A stretch of 64,000 nucleotides of DNA, from the NCBI GenBank assembly GCA_965276715.1, contig OZ255622.1:2534642-2598641 (forward strand), given 5' to 3'. Below are positions 25,041-57,528 of this stretch, piece by piece. The notes under the pieces were generated by a model. That model had not been told where the DNA came from. It ran no database searches and saw only the letters and a list, made by a program, of their open reading frames with translations. The translations under genes were made by a program, and so were the position numbers. Position 1 is the stretch's first letter. Each line of letters begins with the position of its first letter. The stretch is from Acetobacteraceae bacterium (GTDB lineage: Bacteria; Pseudomonadota; Alphaproteobacteria; Acetobacterales; Acetobacteraceae).

Positions 25041-25153
25041 CGTGGGCTTCGCACAGAACGCTTCATGTCCACCCGGTCGCGGTCGAACTTCAAGTCCGAT
25101 GTGAAGGAAGGGTCGGAACCGGGTTATTACGTGGCGTGCGCGCCACGATGGGC

Positions 25154-26578
25154 TCAGAGCAGGCTCTGGGCGTGTCTGAGGTCGGTGACGAAGGCCGCGT
25201 ATTCCCGGGCCTTCGACTCCACGTCCGGCAGGCGCAGCAGGTAGGACGGGTGCACGGTGACGAAGACCTGGCTGTTGCCGTCATGCGCGATCGGGCGGCC
25301 GCGCTCGCGCGAGATCGTCACCGCCCGGCCGAGCACCGCGCGCGCGGCGGTGGCGCCGAGCAGGACGGTGACCGCCGGTTTGATCGCGCGGCGTTCCGCC
25401 TCGAGCCAGCCGGCGCAGGCGACGATGTCGGTCGTGTCGGGCTTCTGGTGGATGCGCCGTTTGCCGCGTGGCTCGAATTTGAAGTGCTTGACCGCGTTGG
25501 TGACGTAGACGTCGCGGCGGTCGATGCCGGCTTCCTTGATCGCGCGGTCGAGGATCTGCCCGGCGGGCCCGACGAAGGGGCGGCCGACGAGGTCCTCCTG
25601 GTCGCCGGGCTGCTCGCCCACCATCATCATGCGCGCGGTCTCGGGTCCCTCGCCGAACACGGTCTGGGTCGCGGGCTCCCAGAGCGGGCAGCGCCGGCAG
25701 TCGGCGGCCTCCCGCGCGAGCGCCGCGATCGCGCCCGCTGGCTCTGCGCCTGGATCGACTGGCTCGGGGCGGCGCGTCTCGGCGCGCGTGCGCGGGGCTG
25801 CTTGCTGGTCGACCATGGTCGCGGTCCTTTCGGCGGCTGAGCGGATCAGGTCCGGAATCGCTGCCGCCTCGGGCAGGTTGCGCCAGTATTTCCTGGGCAT
25901 CTCGGAGCGCATCGCGGCGGTCTTCAGGCGGGCGGGATTGAAGATGCTGCTGAAATAGGCGCGCCAGTAGCGTTCGAGCGCGTCGTCGTCGGGCACGTCC
26001 GCGGGCGAGGCGCCGGGGCCGAACTCGGTGGCCTCGCCCGTCCAGTGCAGGGTCCGGTACGGGGTCAGGATCGAGAACCGCATGGTCGCGAAGCGACGGA
26101 CGAAGAAGCCGGCGTTCGCTTCGACGATGAAGTGGTCGGGCTCGAAGAAGGCGACGTGGCGCGCGCCGTCCGGCTCCTGGACCTCGCGGAAGCGGACGAA
26201 GGCGCGCATCTTGTGGGTGTCGCGCCGCACCGACTGGGCGAGACGGAACGCGCGATGCACCGCGGGATCGGTGACCTGCGCCGCCAGTTGCTTTTCGCCG
26301 CGATGGGCGCGCCAGATCAGCCCGTAGAGCAGCGAGAACCGCTCGGGCGCGCTCGCCTGGATGACGGTCTGGGCGAGGTCGACGAGCGGGCGCGGGACGG
26401 TGAAGGTCGATGGCGCCCGGGGCGCGGCCGAGGGCGCCGGCGCGCCCGCGAACAGGTCGTCGGGCTGGCCCACGGACCAGACCACGTCCTCCGGCGGCAC
26501 CTCGTCCAGCGCCAGGCCGCGAGCGGCCTCGCGCCAGCCGTCGAAATCGACCTCGTGGGCGAGGCTGACGGAGGGCAA
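25154..26578 (-). CDS. DUF4130 (TIGR03915-like) fused to a UdgX-type family-4 uracil-DNA glycosylase
   Basis: The C-terminal half carries GEQPGDQEDLVGRPFVGPAG, NAVKHFKFEPRGKRRIHQKP (the UdgX KRRIH loop) and VHPSYLLR. The TTG start directly follows the radical SAM stop. Confidence 0.8.
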   Translation of the reverse strand: MPSVSLAHEVDFDGWREAARGLALDEVPPEDVVWSVGQPDDLFAGAPAPSAAPRAPSTFTVPRPLVDLAQTVIQASAPERFSLLYGLIWRAHRGEKQLAAQVTDPAVHRAFRLAQSVRRDTHKMRAFVRFREVQEPDGARHVAFFEPDHFIVEANAGFFVRRFATMRFSILTPYRTLHWTGEATEFGPGASPADVPDDDALERYWRAYFSSIFNPARLKTAAMRSEMPRKYWRNLPEAAAIPDLIRSAAERTATMVDQQAAPRTRAETRRPEPVDPGAEPAGAIAALAREAADCRRCPLWEPATQTVFGEGPETARMMMVGEQPGDQEDLVGRPFVGPAGQILDRAIKEAGIDRRDVYVTNAVKHFKFEPRGKRRIHQKPDTTDIVACAGWLEAERRAIKPAVTVLLGATAARAVLGRAVTISRERGRPIAHDGNSQVFVTVHPSYLLRLPDVESKAREYAAFVTDLRHAQSLL

Positions 26579-27808
26579 CTAGAGCAGCATCATCTGGGCG
26601 CCCTTCGGCGCCAGCGTGCGGCGGAGTGCCGCGCTGTCGATATCGCGGCTCGGTCGATGGTCGGCGGCGAGGATGAAGGGGGCGAGCTTGGCGATCGACA
26701 GGCGCAGCCTGGCGAGGTCGTCGGTGCGCAGGCGACGATGCCGGCGCGCGGCGATGATCCGGTCGACCGACTTGACCCCCAGCCCGGGCACGCGCAGCAG
26801 CGCCTCGCGGTTTGCCGTGTTGACGTCGACCGGGAATCGGTCGCGGTGATCGAGCGCCCAGGCGAGCTTGGGGTCGATCGCGAGCGGCAGGTTGCCGTCA
26901 TCGCCGGTCGGCAGCTCGCCAAGCCCGAAGCCGTAGAATCGCAGCAGCCAGTCGGCCTGGTAGAGACGATGCTCGCGCAGCAGCGGTGCCGGCTTGGCGG
27001 GCAAGGTGGCACTCGCGTCCGGGATCGGGCTGAAGGCGGAATAATAGACGCGCTTGAGGCCGTAGCCGGCATAGAGGTTGGTGCTCATCCCGAGGATGGT
27101 GGCGTCGGTGCTGTCGTCGGCGCCGACGATCACCTGGGTGCTCTGGCCGGCCGGCGCGAAACGCTGTGGTGCGGCACCCTTGTGCCCCTTGCGGTCGCGC
27201 GAGGCGTCGATCGCCGCCCGCATGCGGCCCATCGAGCGGCGGATGCCGGGCAGGTCCTTCTCGGGGGCCAGCGCGTGCAGCGCGCCCTCGGTCGGCAGCT
27301 CGACATTGATCGACAGCCGGTCGGCCCAGCGTCCCGCCTCGGCCAGCAGGCCCGGGTCGGCGTCGGGGATCGTCTTGAGATGGATGTAGCCGCGAAACCC
27401 GTGGGTCAGCCGCAAGGTGCGGGCGACGTCGACCACGCGCTCCATCGTGTAGTCGGGATCGCGGATGATGCCCGACGACAGGAACAGGCCCTCGATGCAG
27501 TTGCGGCGGTAGAAGCCCAGCGTCAGCCGGACGATTTCGTCGACGGTGAAACGCGCGCGCTGGACGTTCGAGGAGCGTCGGTTGATGCAGTAGGCGCATT
27601 CATAGATGCAGGAATTGGTCAGCAGGATTTTCAGCAGCGAGATGCAGCGCCCGTCGGGGGCGTAGGCGTGGCAGATGCCCATCCCCTCGGTCGAGCCGAT
27701 CCCGTCGGTCTTGCCCTTGGAGTGGCGCTTGTCGGTGCCGCTCGAGGCGCAGGACGCGTCGTATTTCGCGGCGTCGGCGAGAATCTCGAGTTTTTCGAGC
27801 AGTTCCAT
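26579..27808 (-). CDS. putative DNA modification/repair radical SAM protein (TIGR03916-like)
   Basis: N-terminus MELLEKLEILADAAKYDASC and a CxxxCxxC cluster (CIYECAYC). Confidence 0.8.
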   Translation of the reverse strand: MELLEKLEILADAAKYDASCASSGTDKRHSKGKTDGIGSTEGMGICHAYAPDGRCISLLKILLTNSCIYECAYCINRRSSNVQRARFTVDEIVRLTLGFYRRNCIEGLFLSSGIIRDPDYTMERVVDVARTLRLTHGFRGYIHLKTIPDADPGLLAEAGRWADRLSINVELPTEGALHALAPEKDLPGIRRSMGRMRAAIDASRDRKGHKGAAPQRFAPAGQSTQVIVGADDSTDATILGMSTNLYAGYGLKRVYYSAFSPIPDASATLPAKPAPLLREHRLYQADWLLRFYGFGLGELPTGDDGNLPLAIDPKLAWALDHRDRFPVDVNTANREALLRVPGLGVKSVDRIIAARRHRRLRTDDLARLRLSIAKLAPFILAADHRPSRDIDSAALRRTLAPKGAQMMLL

Positions 27809-27818
27809 GACGGGAACA

Positions 27819-27833
27819 GTTCCCGGCTTGTTC
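27819..27833. promoter_or_regulatory. alphaproteobacterial LexA (SOS) box GTTC-N7-GTTC
   Basis: The sequence is gttcccggcttgttc, a perfect match to GTTC-N7-GTTC, located 11 nt upstream of the radical SAM ATG. It overlaps the palindrome gggaacagttccc. Confidence 0.6.
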
Positions 27834-27876
27834 TCCCCGCGTCAAGTGCGGGGCGGGCTCAAGTGCGAAGCGGGGC

Positions 27877-51297: not shown

Positions 51298-54200
51298 ATG
51301 ATCCAGGGCGGTCTGTTCACGCGTGACTTCCTCCTGGAGGGCGTCACGACCGAACCCGCTTGGCGGGCGCTGACCGACCTTCACGTGGCTGCCGCACGCG
51401 CTCGGCTCATTGCGTTGTCGACGCCGTTCGCGAGCCAGCGTGAGCCCAACGAGGCCGAGACCGAGGCGCAACTGATCTTTCCCGCACTCGAGGATGTGCT
51501 GGATTGGCCTGACTGGCTGCCGCAACAGAACCAGTCCGCCTCCGGCCGGTCGGACGTGCCCGATGCGCTGCTGTTCGCCGATGCGGAGACACTGTCTCGC
51601 GCGCGGGCCGAGCCGGCATGGCAGCGATTTCAGCGAGGCTTGTGCCTCGTCGAGTCGAAGCGCTGGAACCGGCCGCTCGACCGTCCGGCGGACGCGCGCG
51701 GCAAACGGGGGGCCGAAGACGACTTTCCCTCGGCGCAAATCCTCCATTACCTGCGGCGCGCCGACGCGATCACCAGGGGCACGCTGCGCTGGGGCATCCT
51801 GACCAACGGCAGGCTCTGGCGGCTTTATTGGCAAGGCGCGGTTTCGGTCTCGGAGGACTTTCTCGAGATCGATCTCGGCAAGATGCTCGGGCTTCCCGGA
51901 TGCGAACCGGACCTGCTCGATGCGCGCGGTGTCGCGCCCGACCACGCGATGCGCCTGTTCCTGCTGCTGTTCGGCCGCGCGGCGTTCCTTCCCTACGAGC
52001 AGGGCCGCACCTTTCACGCCATCGCGCTCGAGCAGGGCAAGCGGTGGGAAGAGAAGGTCGCGCGCGATCTCTCGCGGGTGGTGTTCGACCAGGTGTTCCC
52101 CGTCCTGGCGCGCGCGCTGGGACGCCATGATCGGGCGCGTCCGACCGAACCGTCGGCGGCTTGGCTGGAGCTGGTCCGGACGAGCACGCTGATCCTGCTC
52201 TATCGGCTTCTGTTCGTCCTTTACGCCGAGGACCGGGACCTGCTGCCCGACGAAAGCGGGCCGTACGCGGACTACTCGCTGACGCGCATCCGGCGCGAGG
52301 TCGCCCAAGCGCGGGCCGCCGGCAAGGCCGCGTCGCCACGCGCCGCGATCTACTGGGCGCGACTGCGCGGCATCTTTGCCGCTGTGGCGCACGGCGACGA
52401 CGGGCTCGGCATTCCGCCCTACAATGGAGGCCTGTTCGAGCCCGACGCGGCGCCGTTGCTCGACCGCGTCGAGCTGCCGGACGCGGTGGTGGCCGAGATC
52501 GTGTTCGCGCTGTCCCACATCGAGAGCGAGCGCGGTCCCAAATACGTCAACTACCGCGATCTCTCGGTCCAGCAACTCGGCTCGGTATATGAGCGCATCC
52601 TGGAGTTCGGCCTGCGGCTCGGCGAGGACGGCGAGATCGCGGTGGATCGTGATGACGACGAGCGCCACGACACCGGCAGCTACTACACGCCGGAGGCACT
52701 GGTCTCGTTGATTATCGAACGCGTAGTGGGGCCGGCGGTGGCGGGGCGTTCAAAGGCGTTCGAAGCTGCGGCCGCCCGGCTGGCCACTGATCGGCGGCCG
52801 GTTGCGACCCGGTTGGCGGAGCTTGCCAAGTATGATCCCGCGTCGAAGCTGCTCGAATTGAGGGTCTGCGATCCGGCGATGGGTTCGGGGCACTTCCTGG
52901 TCAGTCTTGTCGACTGGCTTGCCACCCGCGTGTTGGCGGCGATTGCCGAGGCATCGGCGCAGGTGGGTTGGGGGGTTTATGGCTCGCCGCTACTGGGGCG
53001 CGTGGCCAGCGTGCGCGAGCGCATCCTGTCGGAAGCGAAAATCCACGGCTGGCCGGTGCTGCCCGAGCAGCTCGACGACCGGCATGTCGTCCGGCGGATG
53101 ATCCTCAAGCGCGTGGTGCATGGGGTCGACAAGAACCCGATGGCGGTCGAGCTCGCCAAGGTGTCGCTGTGGCTGCACACGTTCACGGTCGGCGCGCCGC
53201 TGTCGTTCCTCGACCACCATCTGCGCTGCGGCGACAGCATCGTGGGCGCATGGGTCGCGTCTACCCTGGATGCGGTGGCGCAAGGCGGCGGGCTGCTGGC
53301 CCGCGGCGAGATCGCGCGGGTCGAGCACATCGCCGGCGAGATGACCAAGATCGAGGAGATCACCGATAACGATGTCGCCGAGGTGAAGGCGTCCATGCAC
53401 GCGTTCGGCGCAATCGCGGACACGACGCGCGAGCTCGATGCGTTCTTTTCGCTGATGACAGCCCGGCCGGCGCTCGGCATCGACCTCGACCCGAAACTCA
53501 AGCCGCCCCGGGCGAGCCCGCGCCAGTTGCGCGCCGCCGGCGCCGATGCGGGCAGGATCGCGACCGCCGCCAAACAGCAGCTTGCCTATGATCGGGCGGC
53601 CGCCTTCAAGGCGGTGCTCGGCGGACAATACGGCGACCCGCTGACGCTCGCTTCGGGCGCGCTGGTCATCGACACGCCGGATGAGGATTCCGACCAGTCG
53701 CTGCTCGTCGAGGTCGGCGAGGCGATGGACCGGCGCCGTCGCGCGGCGTCGCTCCTGTCGGATGCGCGGTCGCTGACCGCGCGCGAGCGGTTCCTGCACT
53801 GGCAGATCGCTTTCCCCAATATCTGGCGGCATCTGACTTACGCCGCGCCGGACGGCGGCTTCGACGCGGTGATCGGCAACCCGCCGTATGTGCGTCAGGA
53901 GCGGTTGGCCGGCGGTCAAGCCGGCGCTGCAAGCGGGATACGGCACGTTCGCGGGCACCGCCGATCTATATGTCTATTTCTTCGAGCAGGGTCTGCGCCT
54001 GGTCAAGCCGGGCGGCCGGGTCGCCTACGTCGTGACGAACAAGTGGCTGAAAGCGGGCTATGCCGAAGGTCTGCGGGCGATGCTGGTCGACCCCGCGCGC
54101 GCCGAGACGGAGGCGGTGATCGATTTCGGGCATGCGCGCGCGTTCTTTCCGGACGCGGACGTGTTCCCGAACGTCGTGGTCGTTCGTCGGCCGGGCGAGG

Positions 54201-55417
54201 AGGCCGCGCCCGATACCCTTACGGTCGCGGTTCCGCCGCGCGACACGCTGCCTGACGATCGCCTGGGTGCGGCGGTGGCGGCGGCGAGCTTCTCGATCGC
54301 GCGCTCGTCGTTCAGCCGCGACGGCTGGACGCTGGAGCCCAAGCCGGTGATGGATCTGCTCGCCAAGATCAAGCGCGCGGGCGTGCCGCTGGTGGAATAC
54401 GCCGGGGTAAAGCCGTACCGAGGAGTGCTGACTGGCTACAACGAGGCGTTTCTGATCGACACATCCACCCGCGATCGTTTGGTCGCCGACGACCCCGCCA
54501 GCGCGGAGATCGTCAGGCCTTATCTTCGCGGTCAGGACATTCAGCGATGGGGTGCCGATTGGGCAGGGCTCTGGATGATTTTCACTCGGCGAGGAGTAGA
54601 TATCGAGCGCTTTCCGTCGGTGCTCGGGCACCTTGAAAGGTTCAGAGTTGGGCTTGAGCCAAAATCGGATTCTTGGAGACCGAAGAACTCGAAGGACGAA
54701 TGGCCCGGACGCAAGTCGGGAAACTATGCCTGGTATGAGATTCAGGATTCGGTCGAGTACTGGAAGGAGTTTCAGAAACCGAAGATCATTTATCAAGAGA
54801 TCCAGTTTTATCCCAGCTATGCCTTTGACACTTCGGGCAGGTTTGGAAACAACAAGACCTTCATCCTGCCAACGGATGATCTTTCATTACTCGCAACACT
54901 CAACTCGCCACTGATGTGGTGGCGCAATTGGCGCGCTCTTCCTCATCTAAAGGACGAGGCGCTTTCGCCGATGGGTTATTTGGTCGAAAACTTCCCGATC
55001 GCTGTGTCGAAGGACAGCGCCGCGCATGTCGAACGGCTGATCACGTCGACCACGTCGATCCGAGCCGCGGCGTTGGCCATTCACGATTGGCTTCGCATGG
55101 AGTTCGGCCTTGAACGGCCCGGGCGTGCGCTGGAAGCGCCCGAGCGTCTGGACGCGGACGGGTTCGCGGCCGCGGTCCGCGCCGCGCTGCCGCGCAAGCG
55201 TCAGCTTTCCGCTGCCGAGATCGCGCGGCTCAAGCGCGAGCATCGCGAAACGATCCAGCCGGCCCGCGACGCCAGCGCGGAAGTGCTGCGGCTGGAGCGC
55301 CGGATTTCCGATCTCGTGAACGCGGCCTACGGGCTGACGCCCGAGGACGTCGCCTTGATGTGGTCGACCGCGCCGCCGCGTACGCCGCTCGCGCCGTCGG
55401 CTCCCCATGAGCCGTGA
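51298..55417 (+). pseudogene. type IIG restriction-modification enzyme (PD-ExK nuclease, gamma-class N6-adenine MTase and TaqI_C-like TRD), disrupted by a 1-nt frameshift
   Basis: The N-terminal part has PDALLF...VESKRW and LTNGRLWRLY. Motif I is RVCDPAMGSGHFLV and motif IV is VIGNPPYVRQE. The frame changes near 53908-53917 and the sequence continues as KPALQAGYGTFAGTADLYVYFFEQGLRLVKPGGRVAYVVTNKWL in the 53888-55417 ORF. Confidence 0.8.
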
Positions 55418-55470: not shown

Positions 55471-56040
55471 TTACTTGCGGTCGTCGCGATCACAGCTTGG
55501 CCTCCCGTCCGATCGGCAGGTTTCGGCGGCATCCTGGATCAGGGCATGAACCTCGCTGGTGCGCGGCAACGCCGCCAGAACCGCCGGCGTGCAGTGCCCG
55601 CCGGCATCGTCGATGCGGTTAGCCAGTTCGATCGAGGTGTGGCCGATGAAGTATTCGGAGTAATGCCCGGCCAGCTTGGTCAGGATCGCGCAGTAGGCGC
55701 GGTGGCGCGGCCTGTGCGCCAGCAGGTCGCCCTGGAGCGCCTCGTCTGCCGCACGGGCCGGATCGGCGGTCTGAGGCACATGCGCCATGGTGCCAGGGAC
55801 GTCGCGGCGAAAGATGATCATGAAAGCGCGGGCGACGTCGCGCACTGCGGCGCACTTCTCGGTGCCGCACCCGCCGGCAGTGCGGTTCGCGTCACCCACC
55901 TCATCCCAGGTCGCGGGGCCGTTCAGAATACCAGCGTAAGGATCGGGGGCCGCAGCGGCGGGTGCCATGACCGCGAGGGCCGCGGCCAGAACGGATGCGC
56001 TCCTAGTGTCCCGATTGGCAATTGCTGACCAGGAAGTCAT
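55471..56040 (-). CDS. secreted Cys-rich hypothetical protein; 5' end rebuilt by the IS630 insertion
   Basis: Signal peptide ..RSASVLAAALAVMAPAAAA. The first 12 codons (56040-56006) are IS-derived. The original ATG and 3 codons lie at 57194-57185, across the IS. Confidence 0.55.
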   Translation of the reverse strand: MTSWSAIANRDTRSASVLAAALAVMAPAAAAPDPYAGILNGPATWDEVGDANRTAGGCGTEKCAAVRDVARAFMIIFRRDVPGTMAHVPQTADPARAADEALQGDLLAHRPRHRAYCAILTKLAGHYSEYFIGHTSIELANRIDDAGGHCTPAVLAALPRTSEVHALIQDAAETCRSDGRPSCDRDDRK

Positions 56041-57184
56041 GCAGCCGTGGTTTCGGTAAGCGCGACGCGTGCTCGTTTGATTTTTGCGAGGATTTCGGCG
56101 CCCGTGGCTTTCCAGACGTATGGCTTTGGATCGGCATTGCGCACGGCGAGATAGGCTTTGATGTCACGGACCAGTTCGTTGACCGACGTGAAGCTGCCGA
56201 CACGGATCACGTCGCCGGTTAGGTCGGCGAAGAAGCGCTCGACCAGATTGAGCCACGAGGACGAGGTCGGCGTGAAGTGCATGTGGAAACGAGGGTGTCT
56301 GCCCAGCCACGCCCGCACATTGGGATGTTTATGGGTGGCGTAGTTGTCCGCGATCAGATGCAGATCGACGTCGGACGGCGTCTCGCGATCAATCTGCTTG
56401 AGGAAACGCAGCCATTCGACATGCGTGTGGCTCGCCTCGGTGCGGCTGATCAGCTTTCCGGTCAACTGGCTGAGGGCTGCGAACAGTGTGATCGTGCCAT
56501 GCCTGACGTAGTCGTGCGTCATCGTGGGCGGGCGCTTCGGCGCCAGCGGGAGGCCCAGTTGCGTGCGTTCGAGCGCCTGGCATTGGCTTTTCTCGTCGCA
56601 GCACAGCACCAGCGCCTTCGCGGGCGGATTGAGATACAGCCCGATGACGTCCCAGAACTTCTCCTCGAATTTCGGATCGTTCGACAGCTTGAAGGTCCTC
56701 AGACGATGTGGCTTGAGGTCGTTCCTCGACCACAGGCGCTGGACCGAACTCGCGGAGACCCCGGCGTGACGGCTCATCGACCGCAGGCTCCAGCGGCGTC
56801 TACCCTTCGGCGGACGGGTCGCTTCGGTCAGCACGCGTGCCACTTTCACCTCCGGGATCGAAGCCTTGCGGCCACGACCCGGTCGATCATCCAGCCCCGC
56901 AAGACCGAACCTCTCGAACCGCCTCGACCACGTCGAGACGCGCTTGGGCGTCGTATTCAGCCGCTCGGCGACGGCTTCAACCCCGACGCCGTCGAGCCGA
57001 AGCAGGATGATGTCGGCACGCTCGCGCTCCCGCACGTCGACGATGGCCGACCGCGACCGGCGTCGAAGCTCCGTGACAGCGCCAGGTTCAGCACGCAGTC
57101 GCTTGATCGGTCGTCCCATCAAGGCATTTCTCCCGAAACTCTCACGATCAGGAGATATTAGTCGGCAATTGCGGAGCAGGACAC
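56006..57184 (-). mobile_element. IS630-family insertion sequence (1179 bp) with TA target duplication at a CTAG site
   Basis: Terminal inverted repeats are gtgtcccgattggcaattgc (56006-) and gtgtcctgctccgcaattgc (reverse complement of -57184). TA lies at 56004-56005 and at 57185-57186. The element carries a single transposase ORF. Confidence 0.85.
56037..57119 (-). CDS. IS630-family (DDE_3) transposase
   Basis: HTH region, LVLCCDEKSQCQALERTQ, HLIADNYATHKH and FTPTSSSWLNLVERFF. Start at MGRPIKR, inside the IS boundary. Confidence 0.85.
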   Translation of the reverse strand: MGRPIKRLRAEPGAVTELRRRSRSAIVDVRERERADIILLRLDGVGVEAVAERLNTTPKRVSTWSRRFERFGLAGLDDRPGRGRKASIPEVKVARVLTEATRPPKGRRRWSLRSMSRHAGVSASSVQRLWSRNDLKPHRLRTFKLSNDPKFEEKFWDVIGLYLNPPAKALVLCCDEKSQCQALERTQLGLPLAPKRPPTMTHDYVRHGTITLFAALSQLTGKLISRTEASHTHVEWLRFLKQIDRETPSDVDLHLIADNYATHKHPNVRAWLGRHPRFHMHFTPTSSSWLNLVERFFADLTGDVIRVGSFTSVNELVRDIKAYLAVRNADPKPYVWKATGAEILAKIKRARVALTETTAA

Positions 57185-57267
57185 TAGTGGACATGGCCAA
57201 CCGGCACTTGCCTGACTTGCAAAAAGAGAAAGATGGAGAAATCCAGCCGCGACCGTTCTGAAAAAGT

Positions 57268-57528
57268 TCAGTTGATTTTCTCGAAAGCCCAGATCGCTAC
57301 GCCGCCCATGATGATAATGAGCACTCCGAGCGCAGCCATGCCAACCCGCACCGGCGTAGCCTGCGAGGGGATCGCGGCAGACGCCACGATCGGCCCGGAA
57401 ATCAGAAGGGTGATCCCGCATCCGAGCATAGATCTGTTCAAGATGATTATGCCGACGAAGAAAACGAGGAAGCCGCCAGCGAAGATGTATCGCGACGCTT
57501 TAGACGGCGAGGGGCTGCTGTAGCTCAC
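57268..57528 (-). CDS. small multi-TM membrane protein (partner B of the module)
   Basis: 86 aa with about 3 TM segments. Overlaps the 3' end of 57500-58132. Counterpart of 5206-5496. Confidence 0.55.
   Translation of the reverse strand: MSYSSPSPSKASRYIFAGGFLVFFVGIIILNRSMLGCGITLLISGPIVASAAIPSQATPVRVGMAALGVLIIIMGGVAIWAFEKIN

What the first reader, a model, noticed from the sequence alone, without database searches (positions are those of the whole stretch)
25154..27833. Perfect SOS box in front of a radical-SAM plus DUF4130-UdgX (KRRIH) gene pair
The sequence gttcccggcttgttc (27819-27833) is an exact GTTC-N7-GTTC alphaproteobacterial LexA motif. It lies 11 nt upstream of the ATG of the TIGR03916-type radical SAM gene. 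The stop of that gene abuts the start of a DUF4130 protein. The C-terminal half of the DUF4130 protein is a family-4 UDG with GEQPG, HPS and the GKRRIH loop. In Mycobacterium smegmatis UdgX that loop forms a covalent bond with uracil-containing DNA. The radical-SAM/TIGR03915 pairing is a known but functionally unsolved putative DNA repair or modification cassette. This locus adds direct sequence evidence for SOS control, and it shows that the partner is the cross-linking UdgX type rather than an ordinary UDG.
Basis: partly seen in the sequence, partly recalled or inferred. Interest (0 to 1): 0.65.

Follow-up and report, generated by a model that had tools for sequence, protein, structure and literature searches.

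The report
SOS-controlled radical-SAM and UdgX repair operon
A DNA-damage (LexA/SOS) operator really does sit in front of a two-gene operon for a radical-SAM enzyme and a DUF4130-UdgX fusion protein, but this operon, its SOS control and the UdgX identity of its glycosylase domain are already on record, so the locus is a sound but ordinary example of a cassette whose chemistry is still unsolved.

Summary
GTTCCCGGCTTGTTC lies at 27819-27833, which reads GAACAAGCCGGGAAC on the gene strand, 10 nt before the ATG. The first gene is a TIGR03916 radical-SAM gene (26579-27808, minus strand). Its TAG stop is followed directly, in frame, by the TTG start of a DUF4130 (TIGR03915) + UdgX (TIGR03914) fusion (25154-26578).

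The bare motif is not enriched in the window: 3 matches against 1.37 expected. Its position and conservation are decisive instead. In 65 alphaproteobacterial orthologous loci, 53 carry GAAC-N7-GAAC just upstream in the sense orientation, 7 more carry it antisense, and control regions carry none. Betaproteobacterial orthologues carry CTGT-N8-ACAG-type boxes there. In the window's own clade, CTTGAC-N7-GAAC-N7-GAAC is invariant while the flanking bases drift.

The UDG domain is far closer to M. smegmatis UdgX (E 1e-57) than to ordinary family-4 UDGs (E 1e-32). The loop histidine is invariant in 64 of 64 orthologues.

SOS control of this operon (COG1573-COG4277) is published for Alphaproteobacteria, Verrucomicrobia and Bacteroidetes. 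NCBIfam already names the domain "UdgX family". Function remains unknown.

Side observations:
- The model actinobacterial UdgX is stand-alone, with no radical-SAM partner nearby.
- The radical-SAM protein has three extra invariant cysteines.

Interest is low to moderate.

The parts
27841..27846 (-). CTTGAC, a -35-like hexamer 7 nt upstream of the operator
   Evidence: Conserved as CTTGAC (CTTGCC in L086) at a fixed 7-nt distance from the first GAAC in the window, L090, L081, L082, L085 and L086, while neighbouring bases vary. Its promoter role is inferred. The sigma-70 consensus scan found no full promoter.
27819..27833 (-). Putative LexA operator GAACAAGCCGGGAAC (GTTC-N7-GTTC on the + strand)
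   Evidence: Exact match. Both GAAC cores are invariant in six close relatives while the flanks drift. GAAC-N7-GAAC lies upstream of 53 of 65 alphaproteobacterial orthologues in the sense orientation and 7 more antisense. Among spacings of 0-15 nt only N7 is enriched, and control regions have no N7 match. GTTCN7GTTC is the published Caulobacter SOS box (PMC9578287).
26579..27808 (-). [quoted passage not shown]
   Evidence: 548.6 bits against a cut-off of 343.5. PF04055 and HHH_3 match weakly. There is no sequence relative in the PDB.
27587..27610 (-). CIYECAYC: the CX3CX2C radical-SAM [4Fe-4S] motif (C67, C71, C74)
   Evidence: Translation. Invariant in 81 of 81 sequences. C20, C46 and C55 are also invariant in 81 of 81.
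26741..26830 (-). Helix-hairpin-helix (HHH_3) DNA-binding module, residues 327-356
   Evidence: Pfam PF12836, E 3.7e-5, 24.2 bits, below the gathering score of 27. Weak PDB hits to ComEA HhH proteins. This is the highest-confidence part of the AF2 model.
26576..26581 (-). TAG|TTG junction: the stop of cistron 1 is followed directly, in frame, by the start of cistron 2
   Evidence: The same stop+TTG junction occurs in L081, L082, L084 and L085. L083 and L086 have ATG at the homologous codon. Termination-reinitiation coupling is inferred.
25154..26578 (-). DUF4130-UdgX fusion protein, 474 aa
   Evidence: The same fusion architecture is found in 64 of 73 determinable orthologous loci.
25865..26554 (-). 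DUF4130 / TIGR03915 domain (residues 9-238)
   Evidence: TIGR03915, 199 bits against a cut-off of 112; PF13566, 128 bits. AF2 pLDDT is about 85-90 for residues 1-200.
25169..25732 (-). UdgX-type family-4 UDG domain (residues 283-470)
   Evidence: phmmer E 7e-57 to M. smegmatis UdgX structures, against 1e-32 to the Thermus family-4 UDG. Foldseek TM-score (normalised to the target) 0.86-0.91 at 52% identity to UdgX.
25604..25618 (-). Motif A, GEQPG (E322 and Q323 correspond to UdgX E52 and Q53)
   Evidence: Invariant in the 53-sequence alignment. The roles of E52 and Q53 come from PMC10359453.
25448..25462 (-). R-loop KRRIH (H377 corresponds to the cross-linking H109 of UdgX)
   Evidence: Aligned to MsmUdgX KRRIH. 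His in 64 of 64, third Arg in 64 of 64, consensus K-R-R-[IL]-H in orthologues.
25232..25252 (-). Motif B, HPSYLLR
   Evidence: The published UdgX motif B is HPS(S/A)(L/V)(L/V)R (PMC10359453). This locus has Y at the fourth position.

Best explanation
This is a LexA-repressed (SOS) two-gene operon of the known radical-SAM / DUF4130-UdgX 'putative DNA modification/repair' cassette.

Regulation:
- In undamaged cells a LexA dimer binds the direct repeat GAAC-N7-GAAC. The repeat lies 7 bp downstream of a conserved CTTGAC -35 element and ends 10 nt before the ATG. It therefore covers the -10 and start-site region and blocks RNA polymerase. This step is inferred from position and conservation.
- DNA damage activates RecA and LexA cleaves itself. 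This is the established SOS mechanism. It was not tested here.
- The operon is then transcribed as an mRNA with little or no leader. No Shine-Dalgarno sequence is present.
- The second cistron is translated by termination-reinitiation at TAG|TTG, which would give roughly equimolar products (inferred).

Products:
- The first protein has a CX3CX2C [4Fe-4S]/SAM site, three further invariant cysteines that may hold a second cluster, and a C-terminal helix-hairpin-helix DNA-binding module.
- In the second protein, DUF4130 is predicted by others (an AlphaFold 3 model in a 2026 preprint) to dock on the radical-SAM protein as a non-catalytic nucleic-acid-binding subunit.
- The UdgX domain should flip out uracil, cut the glycosidic bond and attach H377 to C1' of the sugar. 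That would make a covalent protein-DNA link, as shown for M. smegmatis UdgX.

Most likely role (about 40% for this last step):
- The UdgX domain is an accessory lesion-capture module.
- It shields the abasic site made at uracil in damage-exposed single-stranded DNA.
- It also tethers the radical-SAM/DUF4130 core at that site.
- The core carries out a still unidentified radical reaction on DNA.
For: - Family assignments all score well above the curated cut-offs.
- Operator conservation: 53 of 65 alphaproteobacterial orthologous promoters carry sense GAAC-N7-GAAC and 7 more carry it antisense. No other spacing is enriched, and controls have no N7 match.
- Within the window's clade the CTTGAC and both GAAC cores are invariant while the flanks change. 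This includes L090, which is 94% identical over 6 kb.
- Six of six betaproteobacterial orthologues carry CTGT-N8-ACAG or CTGT-N8-CCAG boxes at the same place. LexA control therefore follows the operon across classes.
- Published SOS regulation of this operon: PMC8565304.
- Published SOS box GTTCN7GTTC: PMC9578287 and bioRxiv 10.1101/2025.01.26.634973.
- The stop+TTG junction is conserved.
- UdgX identity: E 1e-57 to MsmUdgX; GEQPG, KRRIH and HPSYLLR present; His invariant in 64 of 64; structural match with TM-score 0.86-0.91.
- MsmUdgX is itself a TIGR03914 member, at 241.5 bits.
- UdgX covalent chemistry: PMC4787834 and PMC10359453. Activity of the Bradyrhizobium homologue: PMC5449639.
- DUF4130-radical-SAM complex prediction: bioRxiv 10.64898/2026.08.19.745780.
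- UdgX is accessory to the core. Eight loci have DUF4130 without UDG, and five of those eight still carry an exact class-specific SOS box. One locus fuses DUF4130 to DUF72 instead.
Against: - No binding or expression data exist for this locus.
- The operator spacer is atypically G+C-rich. It scores at the bottom of the orthologous-site distribution. That matrix is confounded, however, because in many orthologues the spacer doubles as a TATAAG-like -10 element.
- Some near relatives (L001, L083, L084) lack the box, so control is not universal.
- No sigma-70 -10 element is recognisable.
- The R-loop is two residues shorter than in MsmUdgX, and motif B has Y where UdgX has S or A. Cross-linking by a DUF4130 fusion in the presence of its radical-SAM partner is untested.
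- The radical-SAM substrate is unknown. The AF2 model is weak (pLDDT 67) and Foldseek gives only generic radical-SAM barrels.
- Stand-alone UdgX in Actinobacteria works without any radical-SAM partner.
Confidence: 0.72

Rival explanations
1. The GTTC-N7-GTTC match is a chance or decayed sequence, and the operon in this organism is not under LexA control.
For: - The bare motif is not enriched in the window: 3 matches against 1.37 expected.
- The spacer is G+C-rich and the weight-matrix score of 9.9 bits is below every training site.
- Related lineages L001, L083 and L084 have no exact box.
- No lexA or recA control could be run.
Against: - The chance of an exact match inside the 68-nt promoter region is about 0.001.
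- The cores and the fixed CTTGAC-N7 spacing are invariant in six clade members while surrounding bases change.
- The same box type lies upstream of 60 of 65 alphaproteobacterial orthologues.
Confidence: 0.08
2. The operon is SOS-controlled, but within this system the UdgX domain does not end as a suicide cross-link. The radical-SAM/DUF4130 partner either resolves the His-C1' link or acts on the captured site, so that the fusion turns over. The pair would then be a complete lesion-processing machine rather than a shield.
For: - The UdgX domain is physically fused to the predicted docking subunit of the radical-SAM enzyme.
- The two cistrons are translationally coupled.
- H109 substitutions convert UdgX into a turnover glycosylase, so the chemistry is finely balanced (PMC10359453).
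- A single-use protein would be costly during SOS (my reasoning).
Against: - Stand-alone UdgX has no radical-SAM partner nearby in three actinobacterial loci.
- The radical-SAM/DUF4130 core exists without any UDG domain in 8 loci, so its primary substrate cannot be the UdgX adduct.
- There are no biochemical data.
Confidence: 0.12
3. The cassette is primarily a DNA (or RNA) modification system, for example a base modification linked to damage tolerance or mutagenesis, rather than a repair system. The UDG domain would serve only for targeting.
For: - NCBIfam leaves 'modification/repair' open.
- Aravind et al. [quoted passage not shown] - Three extra invariant cysteines and weak Foldseek similarity to LipA and MiaB fit two-cluster insertion chemistry.
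Against: - Conserved SOS control in at least four phyla or classes argues for a response to damage.
- The partner modules are base-excision-type domains (UdgX). DUF72 is a second partner module of unknown function.
- The Foldseek matches are low (TM-score 0.3-0.45) and come from a weak model.
Confidence: 0.08

Closest known systems
SOS-regulated UDG/radical-SAM operon (COG1573-COG4277) of Caulobacter crescentus, Verrucomicrobia and Bacteroidetes (da Rocha 2008 and Erill 2016, as cited in Sanchez-Osuna 2021, PMC8565304)
   Same: The same two protein families in one operon, preceded by the LexA box type of the host's class. Here that is the alphaproteobacterial GTTC-N7-GTTC box.
   Different: The host is a different family, close to Lichenicoccus and Lichenicola in the Acetobacteraceae. 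The operator has a G+C-rich spacer conserved within its clade. The two primary papers are not in the held library, so I could not read their gene tables.
Mycobacterium smegmatis UdgX (PDB 6AIL, 6AJO, 6IOD)
   Same: About 52% identical UDG domain. Shares GEQPG with Q, the KRRIH histidine loop, an HPSxLLR motif B and three conserved cysteines. Both are members of TIGR03914.
   Different: MsmUdgX-type proteins are stand-alone, 208-214 aa in the three loci looked up. In those three actinobacterial loci there is no radical-SAM or DUF4130 gene within 5 kb and no GAAC-N4-GTTC box upstream. In the window the domain is the C-terminal third of a 474-aa DUF4130 fusion. Its loop is two residues shorter, and motif B has Y in place of S or A.
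Bradyrhizobium diazoefficiens Bll3023 (PMC5449639)
   Same: An alphaproteobacterial UdgX homologue reported to show UdgX-class activity. The Bradyrhizobium loci in my set are DUF4130-UDG fusions next to the radical-SAM gene, with a GTTC-N7-GTTC box.
   Different: The loop reads K-I-R-L-H there. That paper does not mention the N-terminal domain, the radical-SAM neighbour or SOS control. That Bll3023 is such a fusion is my inference.
SRAP / HMCES / YedK abasic-site cross-linking proteins
   Same: A functional analogy only. These proteins are linked to the SOS network and form a covalent link to abasic sites in single-stranded DNA to prevent strand breakage (PMC3765255; PMC10505908 abstract).
   Different: The fold and chemistry are unrelated (Cys2 thiazolidine, from my own knowledge). 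SRAP does not excise the base itself. No homology was tested or claimed.
Spore photoproduct lyase SplB (COG1533), the radical-SAM DNA repair enzyme
   Same: A radical-SAM enzyme acting on DNA that is SOS-regulated in several species (PMC8565304).
   Different: It belongs to a different COG. No SplB structure appears among the 50 listed Foldseek hits or in the sequence search. The window enzyme has three extra invariant N-terminal cysteines and a C-terminal HhH module.

Membership tests
Alphaproteobacterial LexA operator (GTTC-N7-GTTC / GAAC-N7-GAAC) | Two identical GTTC/GAAC tetranucleotides as a direct repeat with exactly 7 nt between them | tested here: met
   GAACAAGCCGGGAAC at 27819-27833.
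Alphaproteobacterial LexA operator (GTTC-N7-GTTC / GAAC-N7-GAAC) | Located in the promoter region of the regulated gene | tested here: met
   It lies in the 68-nt intergenic region, 7 nt after a conserved CTTGAC and 10 nt before the ATG. The transcription start site is unknown.
Alphaproteobacterial LexA operator (GTTC-N7-GTTC / GAAC-N7-GAAC) | Conserved in orthologous promoters (phylogenetic footprint) | tested here: met
   60 of 65 alphaproteobacterial loci carry the box and controls carry none. The cores are invariant in six clade members.
Alphaproteobacterial LexA operator (GTTC-N7-GTTC / GAAC-N7-GAAC) | Similarity to the extended consensus, including the A/T-rich spacer | tested here: inconclusive
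   9.9 bits against a training range of 10.4-35.4. The matrix comes only from this operon's promoters, where the spacer often doubles as a -10 element.
Alphaproteobacterial LexA operator (GTTC-N7-GTTC / GAAC-N7-GAAC) | Bound by LexA; the gene is induced by DNA damage in a RecA/LexA-dependent way | not testable with these tools
   Needs gel shift or ChIP and RT-qPCR. No lexA or recA was found among the 24 of 43 gene calls scanned against family models, so no in-genome control was possible.
TIGR03916 radical SAM (rSAM_link_UDG) | HMM score above the curated cut-off | tested here: met
   548.6 bits against 343.5.
TIGR03916 radical SAM (rSAM_link_UDG) | CX3CX2C cluster-binding motif | tested here: met
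   C67, C71 and C74 in CIYECAYC, invariant in 81 of 81 sequences.
TIGR03916 radical SAM (rSAM_link_UDG) | Adjacent to a TIGR03915 (DUF4130) gene, usually with a UDG domain | tested here: met
   The genes abut in the window. A DUF4130 gene follows the radical-SAM gene in 76 of 80 loci; in the other 4 the held sequence ends too soon after it. 64 of the 73 loci where the architecture can be determined are DUF4130-UDG fusions.
TIGR03916 radical SAM (rSAM_link_UDG) | SAM cleavage and radical chemistry on a nucleic-acid substrate | not testable with these tools
   No solved relative exists. The AF2 model has pLDDT 67 and Foldseek returns only generic radical-SAM barrels.
TIGR03915 / Pfam DUF4130 | HMM score above the cut-off | tested here: met
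   TIGR03915, 199 bits against 112; PF13566, 128 bits against 27.
UdgX (TIGR03914) | HMM score above the cut-off, and closer to UdgX than to ordinary family-4 UDGs | tested here: met
   328 bits against 190. E 7e-57 to UdgX against 1e-32 to Thermus UDG. Foldseek E 1e-20 against 1e-15.
UdgX (TIGR03914) | Motif A GEQPG, with E52 and Q53 | tested here: met
   GEQPG at residues 321-325. Invariant in the alignment.
UdgX (TIGR03914) | R-loop KRRIH with the nucleophilic histidine (H109) | tested here: met
   KRRIH at 373-377, aligned to the MsmUdgX loop. His in 64 of 64 orthologues. The loop is two residues shorter before the motif.
UdgX (TIGR03914) | Motif B HPS(S/A)(L/V)(L/V)R | tested here: inconclusive
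   HPSYLLR has Y at position 4. H, P, S, L, L and R are invariant in relatives.
UdgX (TIGR03914) | Forms an SDS- and heat-stable covalent complex with uracil-DNA | not testable with these tools
   Shown for MsmUdgX (PMC4787834). UdgX-class activity is reported for the Bradyrhizobium homologue (PMC5449639). Not shown for this protein.

The most novel reading that the evidence does not exclude
The SOS-induced radical-SAM/DUF4130-UdgX pair is a single machine. The UdgX domain excises uracil and tethers itself covalently at single-stranded gaps. This positions a two-cluster radical-SAM enzyme to perform a new radical reaction on DNA, either repairing an adjacent lesion or reversing the His-C1' protein-DNA cross-link. 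That would give UdgX its long-missing physiological role and define a new class of DNA repair chemistry.
Probability: 0.15. Interest if true: 0.75.

Novelty: already known. Interest (0 to 1): 0.28.

Why it matters
The locus itself adds little. The operon family, its link to the SOS response in Alphaproteobacteria and the UdgX nature of its glycosylase domain are already in the literature and in NCBI's family names.

Its value is as a clean, well-conserved example of an unsolved system. UdgX researchers still write that the protein's physiological role is largely unknown (PMC10359453). In the library searched, no paper mentions UdgX together with radical SAM.

The comparison made here points experiments at the complex rather than the isolated domain:
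- In these mostly proteobacterial relatives, UdgX is usually (64 of 73 loci) the C-terminal domain of a DUF4130 protein.
- That protein is translationally coupled to a radical-SAM enzyme.
- The operon is placed under LexA.
- The actinobacterial model protein, by contrast, is a stand-alone gene.

Tried and rejected
- Positive controls (recA, lexA) in the same genome. The window has none among the genes annotated. The window's own protein is 'not on record' for contig look-up.
- Reading the primary reports (da Rocha 2008, Erill 2016, Erill 2004). None is held, so prior SOS regulation rests on the statement in PMC8565304.
- Sequence search of the radical-SAM protein against the PDB. It returned only insignificant HhH and BioB-like hits.
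- AF2 model of the radical-SAM protein from 54 close homologues. The result was weak (pLDDT 66.9, N-terminal 14-83 below 50). Foldseek gave only generic radical-SAM barrels (LipA, TokK, viperin, MiaB; TM-score 0.3-0.45). I therefore rejected any specific 'works like SPL' or 'works like MiaB' claim.
- AF2 and Foldseek of the fusion protein. These recovered UdgX only. No DUF4130 match appeared in the top 50, so the preprint's DHH-like proposal was not independently checked.
- The palindrome CGGGAACAGTTCCCG (27811-27825) as a third half-site or a 5' hairpin. I rejected it as functional because it is lost in L090 (94% identical) and in L081, L082 and L085.
- The low weight-matrix score as evidence of operator decay. 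I rejected this because the G+C-rich spacer variant is itself conserved in the clade, and the matrix is confounded by embedded -10 elements.
- Literature searches for fitness or cisplatin phenotypes of this cassette. Nothing relevant was found.

Full report
**What is in the sequence.**
- On the minus strand the region reads ...cacTTGACgcggggaGAACAAGCCGGGAACtgttcccgtcATG. The + strand match GTTCCCGGCTTGTTC at 27819-27833 is exact.
- The ATG at 27808 opens a 409-aa ORF (26579-27808). [quoted passage not shown]
- This protein has a CIYECAYC cluster motif and a weak C-terminal helix-hairpin-helix match.
- Its TAG stop is followed directly, in the same frame, by TTG, which opens a 474-aa ORF (25154-26578).
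- Close relatives have the same stop+TTG junction. More distant ones have ATG at the homologous codon, so TTG is the real start and the two cistrons are probably translationally coupled.
- The second protein matches TIGR03915 / Pfam DUF4130 over residues 9-238 and TIGR03914 over residues 240-469. NCBIfam's own name for TIGR03914 is 'UdgX family uracil-DNA binding protein'.
- Neighbouring genes are housekeeping genes: DUF2939, queC and moeB upstream; an SLT/SPOR transglycosylase, a dihydropyrimidinase and leuS downstream. The unit is therefore two genes.

**Is the box more than chance?**
- By count in the window it is not. There are 3 matches against 1.37 expected, and 14 of 100 shuffles do as well. 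The other two matches lie inside a coding region and upstream of an IS630 transposase.
- By position and conservation it is. I fetched 80 loci encoding relatives of the radical-SAM protein from reference genomes.
- In the 65 alphaproteobacterial loci, the 135 nt around the start contain GAAC-N7-GAAC in the sense orientation in 53, and GTTC-N7-GTTC in 7 more.
- Every other spacing from 0 to 15 occurs in 0-2 loci. Two same-length control regions have no N7 match.
- All six betaproteobacterial orthologues carry an E. coli-type CTGT-N8-ACAG or CTGT-N8-CCAG box at the same place.
- An operator that changes type with the host's LexA while staying at the same promoter is the classical signature of conserved SOS control.

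**The window's own clade.**
- I recovered closer relatives from metagenome assemblies. One of them, L090, is 94% identical in DNA over 6 kb.
- In the window, L090, L081, L082, L085 and L086 the architecture CTTGAC-N7-GAAC-N7-GAAC-(8-10 nt)-start is kept.
- The -35-like hexamer and both GAAC cores are invariant. The 7 nt before the box and the 10 nt after it differ freely.
- The spacer is G+C-rich in this clade ([AG]AGCC[AG][ACG]). That is why the site scores only 9.9 bits on a matrix built from 58 orthologous sites (minimum 10.4, median 29).
- I do not read this as decay. The variant is itself conserved. In many orthologues the A/T-rich spacer (GAACATATAAGGAAC) looks like an embedded TATAAG -10 element, which inflates the matrix.
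- 'Perfect' is therefore true only for the cores.
- Three related lineages lack the box. L001 and L083 have a GACATTGTC palindrome instead, and L084 has nothing recognisable.
- The small palindrome overlapping the box in the window (27811-27825) is not conserved even in L090, so it is probably accidental.
- No Shine-Dalgarno sequence is present in any clade member. That fits a very short or absent leader (inference).

**The UdgX domain.**
- Against PDB sequences, residues 283-470 hit M. smegmatis UdgX at E about 7e-57. Ordinary family-4 UDGs score 1e-32 or worse. The KRRIH loops align.
- An AF2 model of the fusion has a confident DUF4130 domain, a disordered linker (residues 200-280) and a confident UDG domain.
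- The UDG domain superposes on UdgX structures with TM-score 0.86-0.91 at 52% identity.
- Motif A is GEQPG, with the Q that distinguishes UdgX. The loop is KRRIH. Motif B is HPSYLLR, where the published motif allows S or A and this locus has Y.
- Across 64 UDG domains encoded in the fetched loci the loop consensus is K-R-R-[IL]-H. The third Arg and the His are each present in 64 of 64.
- M. smegmatis UdgX is itself a member of TIGR03914, at 241.5 bits.

**What is already known.**
- Sanchez-Osuna et al. [quoted passage not shown] - GTTCN7GTTC is the published Caulobacter SOS box.
- Aravind et al. 2013 already placed DUF4130, radical-SAM enzymes and UDGs in the SOS gene-neighbourhood network.
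- A 2026 preprint predicts a confident DUF4130-radical-SAM complex. It proposes that DUF4130 is a non-catalytic nucleic-acid-binding partner.
- UdgX-class activity was reported for the Bradyrhizobium diazoefficiens homologue Bll3023. The Bradyrhizobium loci in my set are DUF4130-UDG fusions behind a LexA box.
- Close relatives of the window protein are named 'UdgX family uracil-DNA binding protein' in NCBI.

**What the comparison adds.**
- (i) The fusion is the rule. 64 of 73 determinable loci encode DUF4130-UdgX as one ORF, and 8 have DUF4130 alone. Five of those eight (L005, L041, L060, L075, L069) still carry an exact class-specific SOS box. In one of the eight (L054) DUF4130 is fused to DUF72 instead. 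SOS control thus belongs to the radical-SAM/DUF4130 core, and UdgX is an exchangeable accessory module.
- (ii) The biochemical model protein is atypical. In three actinobacterial loci udgX is a stand-alone gene of about 210 aa. No radical-SAM or DUF4130 gene lies within 5 kb, and there is no actinobacterial-type GAAC-N4-GTTC box.
- (iii) In the searched library no paper contains both 'UdgX' and 'radical SAM'. The 2023 UdgX paper still says its physiological role is largely unknown.
- (iv) The radical-SAM protein has three further cysteines, C20, C46 and C55, invariant in 81 of 81 sequences. They are candidates for an auxiliary cluster.
- (v) The protein has no sequence relative in the PDB. My AF2 model is weak (pLDDT 67) and Foldseek finds only generic radical-SAM barrels, led by LipA, TokK, viperin and MiaB at TM-score 0.3-0.45. 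Nothing supports a specific spore-photoproduct-lyase-like mechanism.

**Mechanism.**
- Shown by sequence and comparison: the operator, its promoter position, the family memberships, the coupled cistrons, and the UdgX catalytic motifs.
- From established knowledge: LexA repression and RecA-stimulated self-cleavage, and UdgX excision of uracil with covalent attachment of the loop histidine to C1'.
- Inferred: that LexA of this organism binds this G+C-rich-spacer site, that the transcript is leaderless, and that DUF4130 docks on the radical-SAM enzyme.
- Also inferred: that the UdgX domain captures uracil or abasic sites in damage-exposed single-stranded DNA and tethers the radical-SAM core there.
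- The radical reaction itself is unknown.
- I put about 0.9 on LexA control of the orthologous operon in general and about 0.75-0.8 for this locus. I put about 0.85 on UdgX-type chemistry of the domain and about 0.4 on the tether-and-shield role.

**Verdict.** This is a correct and careful observation of a real regulatory element and a real operon. It is an orthologue of an already described SOS-regulated cassette with already assigned family names. Novelty: already known. Interest: low to moderate, because the cassette's chemistry and the biological role of UdgX remain open and this context gives a direct experimental handle.

Noticed in passing
L004, L035, L036, L039, L042, L049, L064 (about -38 from the radical-SAM start): All seven Xanthomonadales or unclassified gammaproteobacterial orthologous promoters carry a palindrome TCTC[AG]-N5-[TC]GAGA at a fixed distance from the start. 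There is no alpha-type box, no E. coli-type box, and no match to a TTAG...TACTA-type pattern that I recalled from memory as the Xanthomonas LexA box. This looks like an operator for an unidentified regulator of the same operon.
   Followed up: partly
L054:1974-3809: In a Gemmatimonadales genome the DUF4130 protein is fused to DUF72 (PF01904, 182 bits) instead of a UdgX domain. This suggests that DUF4130 is an adaptor carrying alternative DNA-processing modules.
   Followed up: partly
window 27644-27751 (radical-SAM residues C20, C46, C55): Three cysteines outside the CX3CX2C motif are invariant in 81 of 81 homologues. They may bind an auxiliary Fe-S cluster. This region is poorly modelled by AF2.
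   Followed up: partly
L087, L088, L089: Stand-alone actinobacterial udgX genes have no radical-SAM or DUF4130 neighbour and no GAAC-N4-GTTC box. Their upstream regions share a GTGGGTA[TC]CC-like element shortly before the start codon.
   Followed up: partly
L001 (2977-2997) and L083 (about 1700-1723): Two lineages close to the window have replaced the LexA box with a short palindrome, GACATTGTC, just before the ATG. L084 has neither element.
   Followed up: no
window 27811-27825: The palindrome CGGGAACAGTTCCCG overlaps the proximal GAAC and was flagged as terminator-like on the + strand. It is not conserved in L090 or other clade members, so it is probably fortuitous.
   Followed up: yes
window 57255-57269 and 56037-57200: A second intergenic GTTC-N7-GTTC (GTTCTGAAAAAGTTC) lies 55 nt upstream of an IS630-family transposase, in the lowest-GC stretch of the 48-60 kb region profiled (0.585 at 57-58 kb, against 0.60-0.74 in the other 1-kb bins there). 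It could be chance or LexA control of a transposase.
   Followed up: partly
window 51298-54255: A 985-aa ORF with only weak similarity to BREX PglX-type adenine methyltransferases lies a few kb from the IS630 element. It may be part of a defence or mobile island.
   Followed up: no
window 25130-25147: An inverted repeat CGTGGCG-CGCA-CGCCACG lies 6 nt after the operon's TGA stop and is not followed by a T-run. It may be a terminator or an mRNA-stabilising hairpin. The terminator scan did not call it.
   Followed up: no
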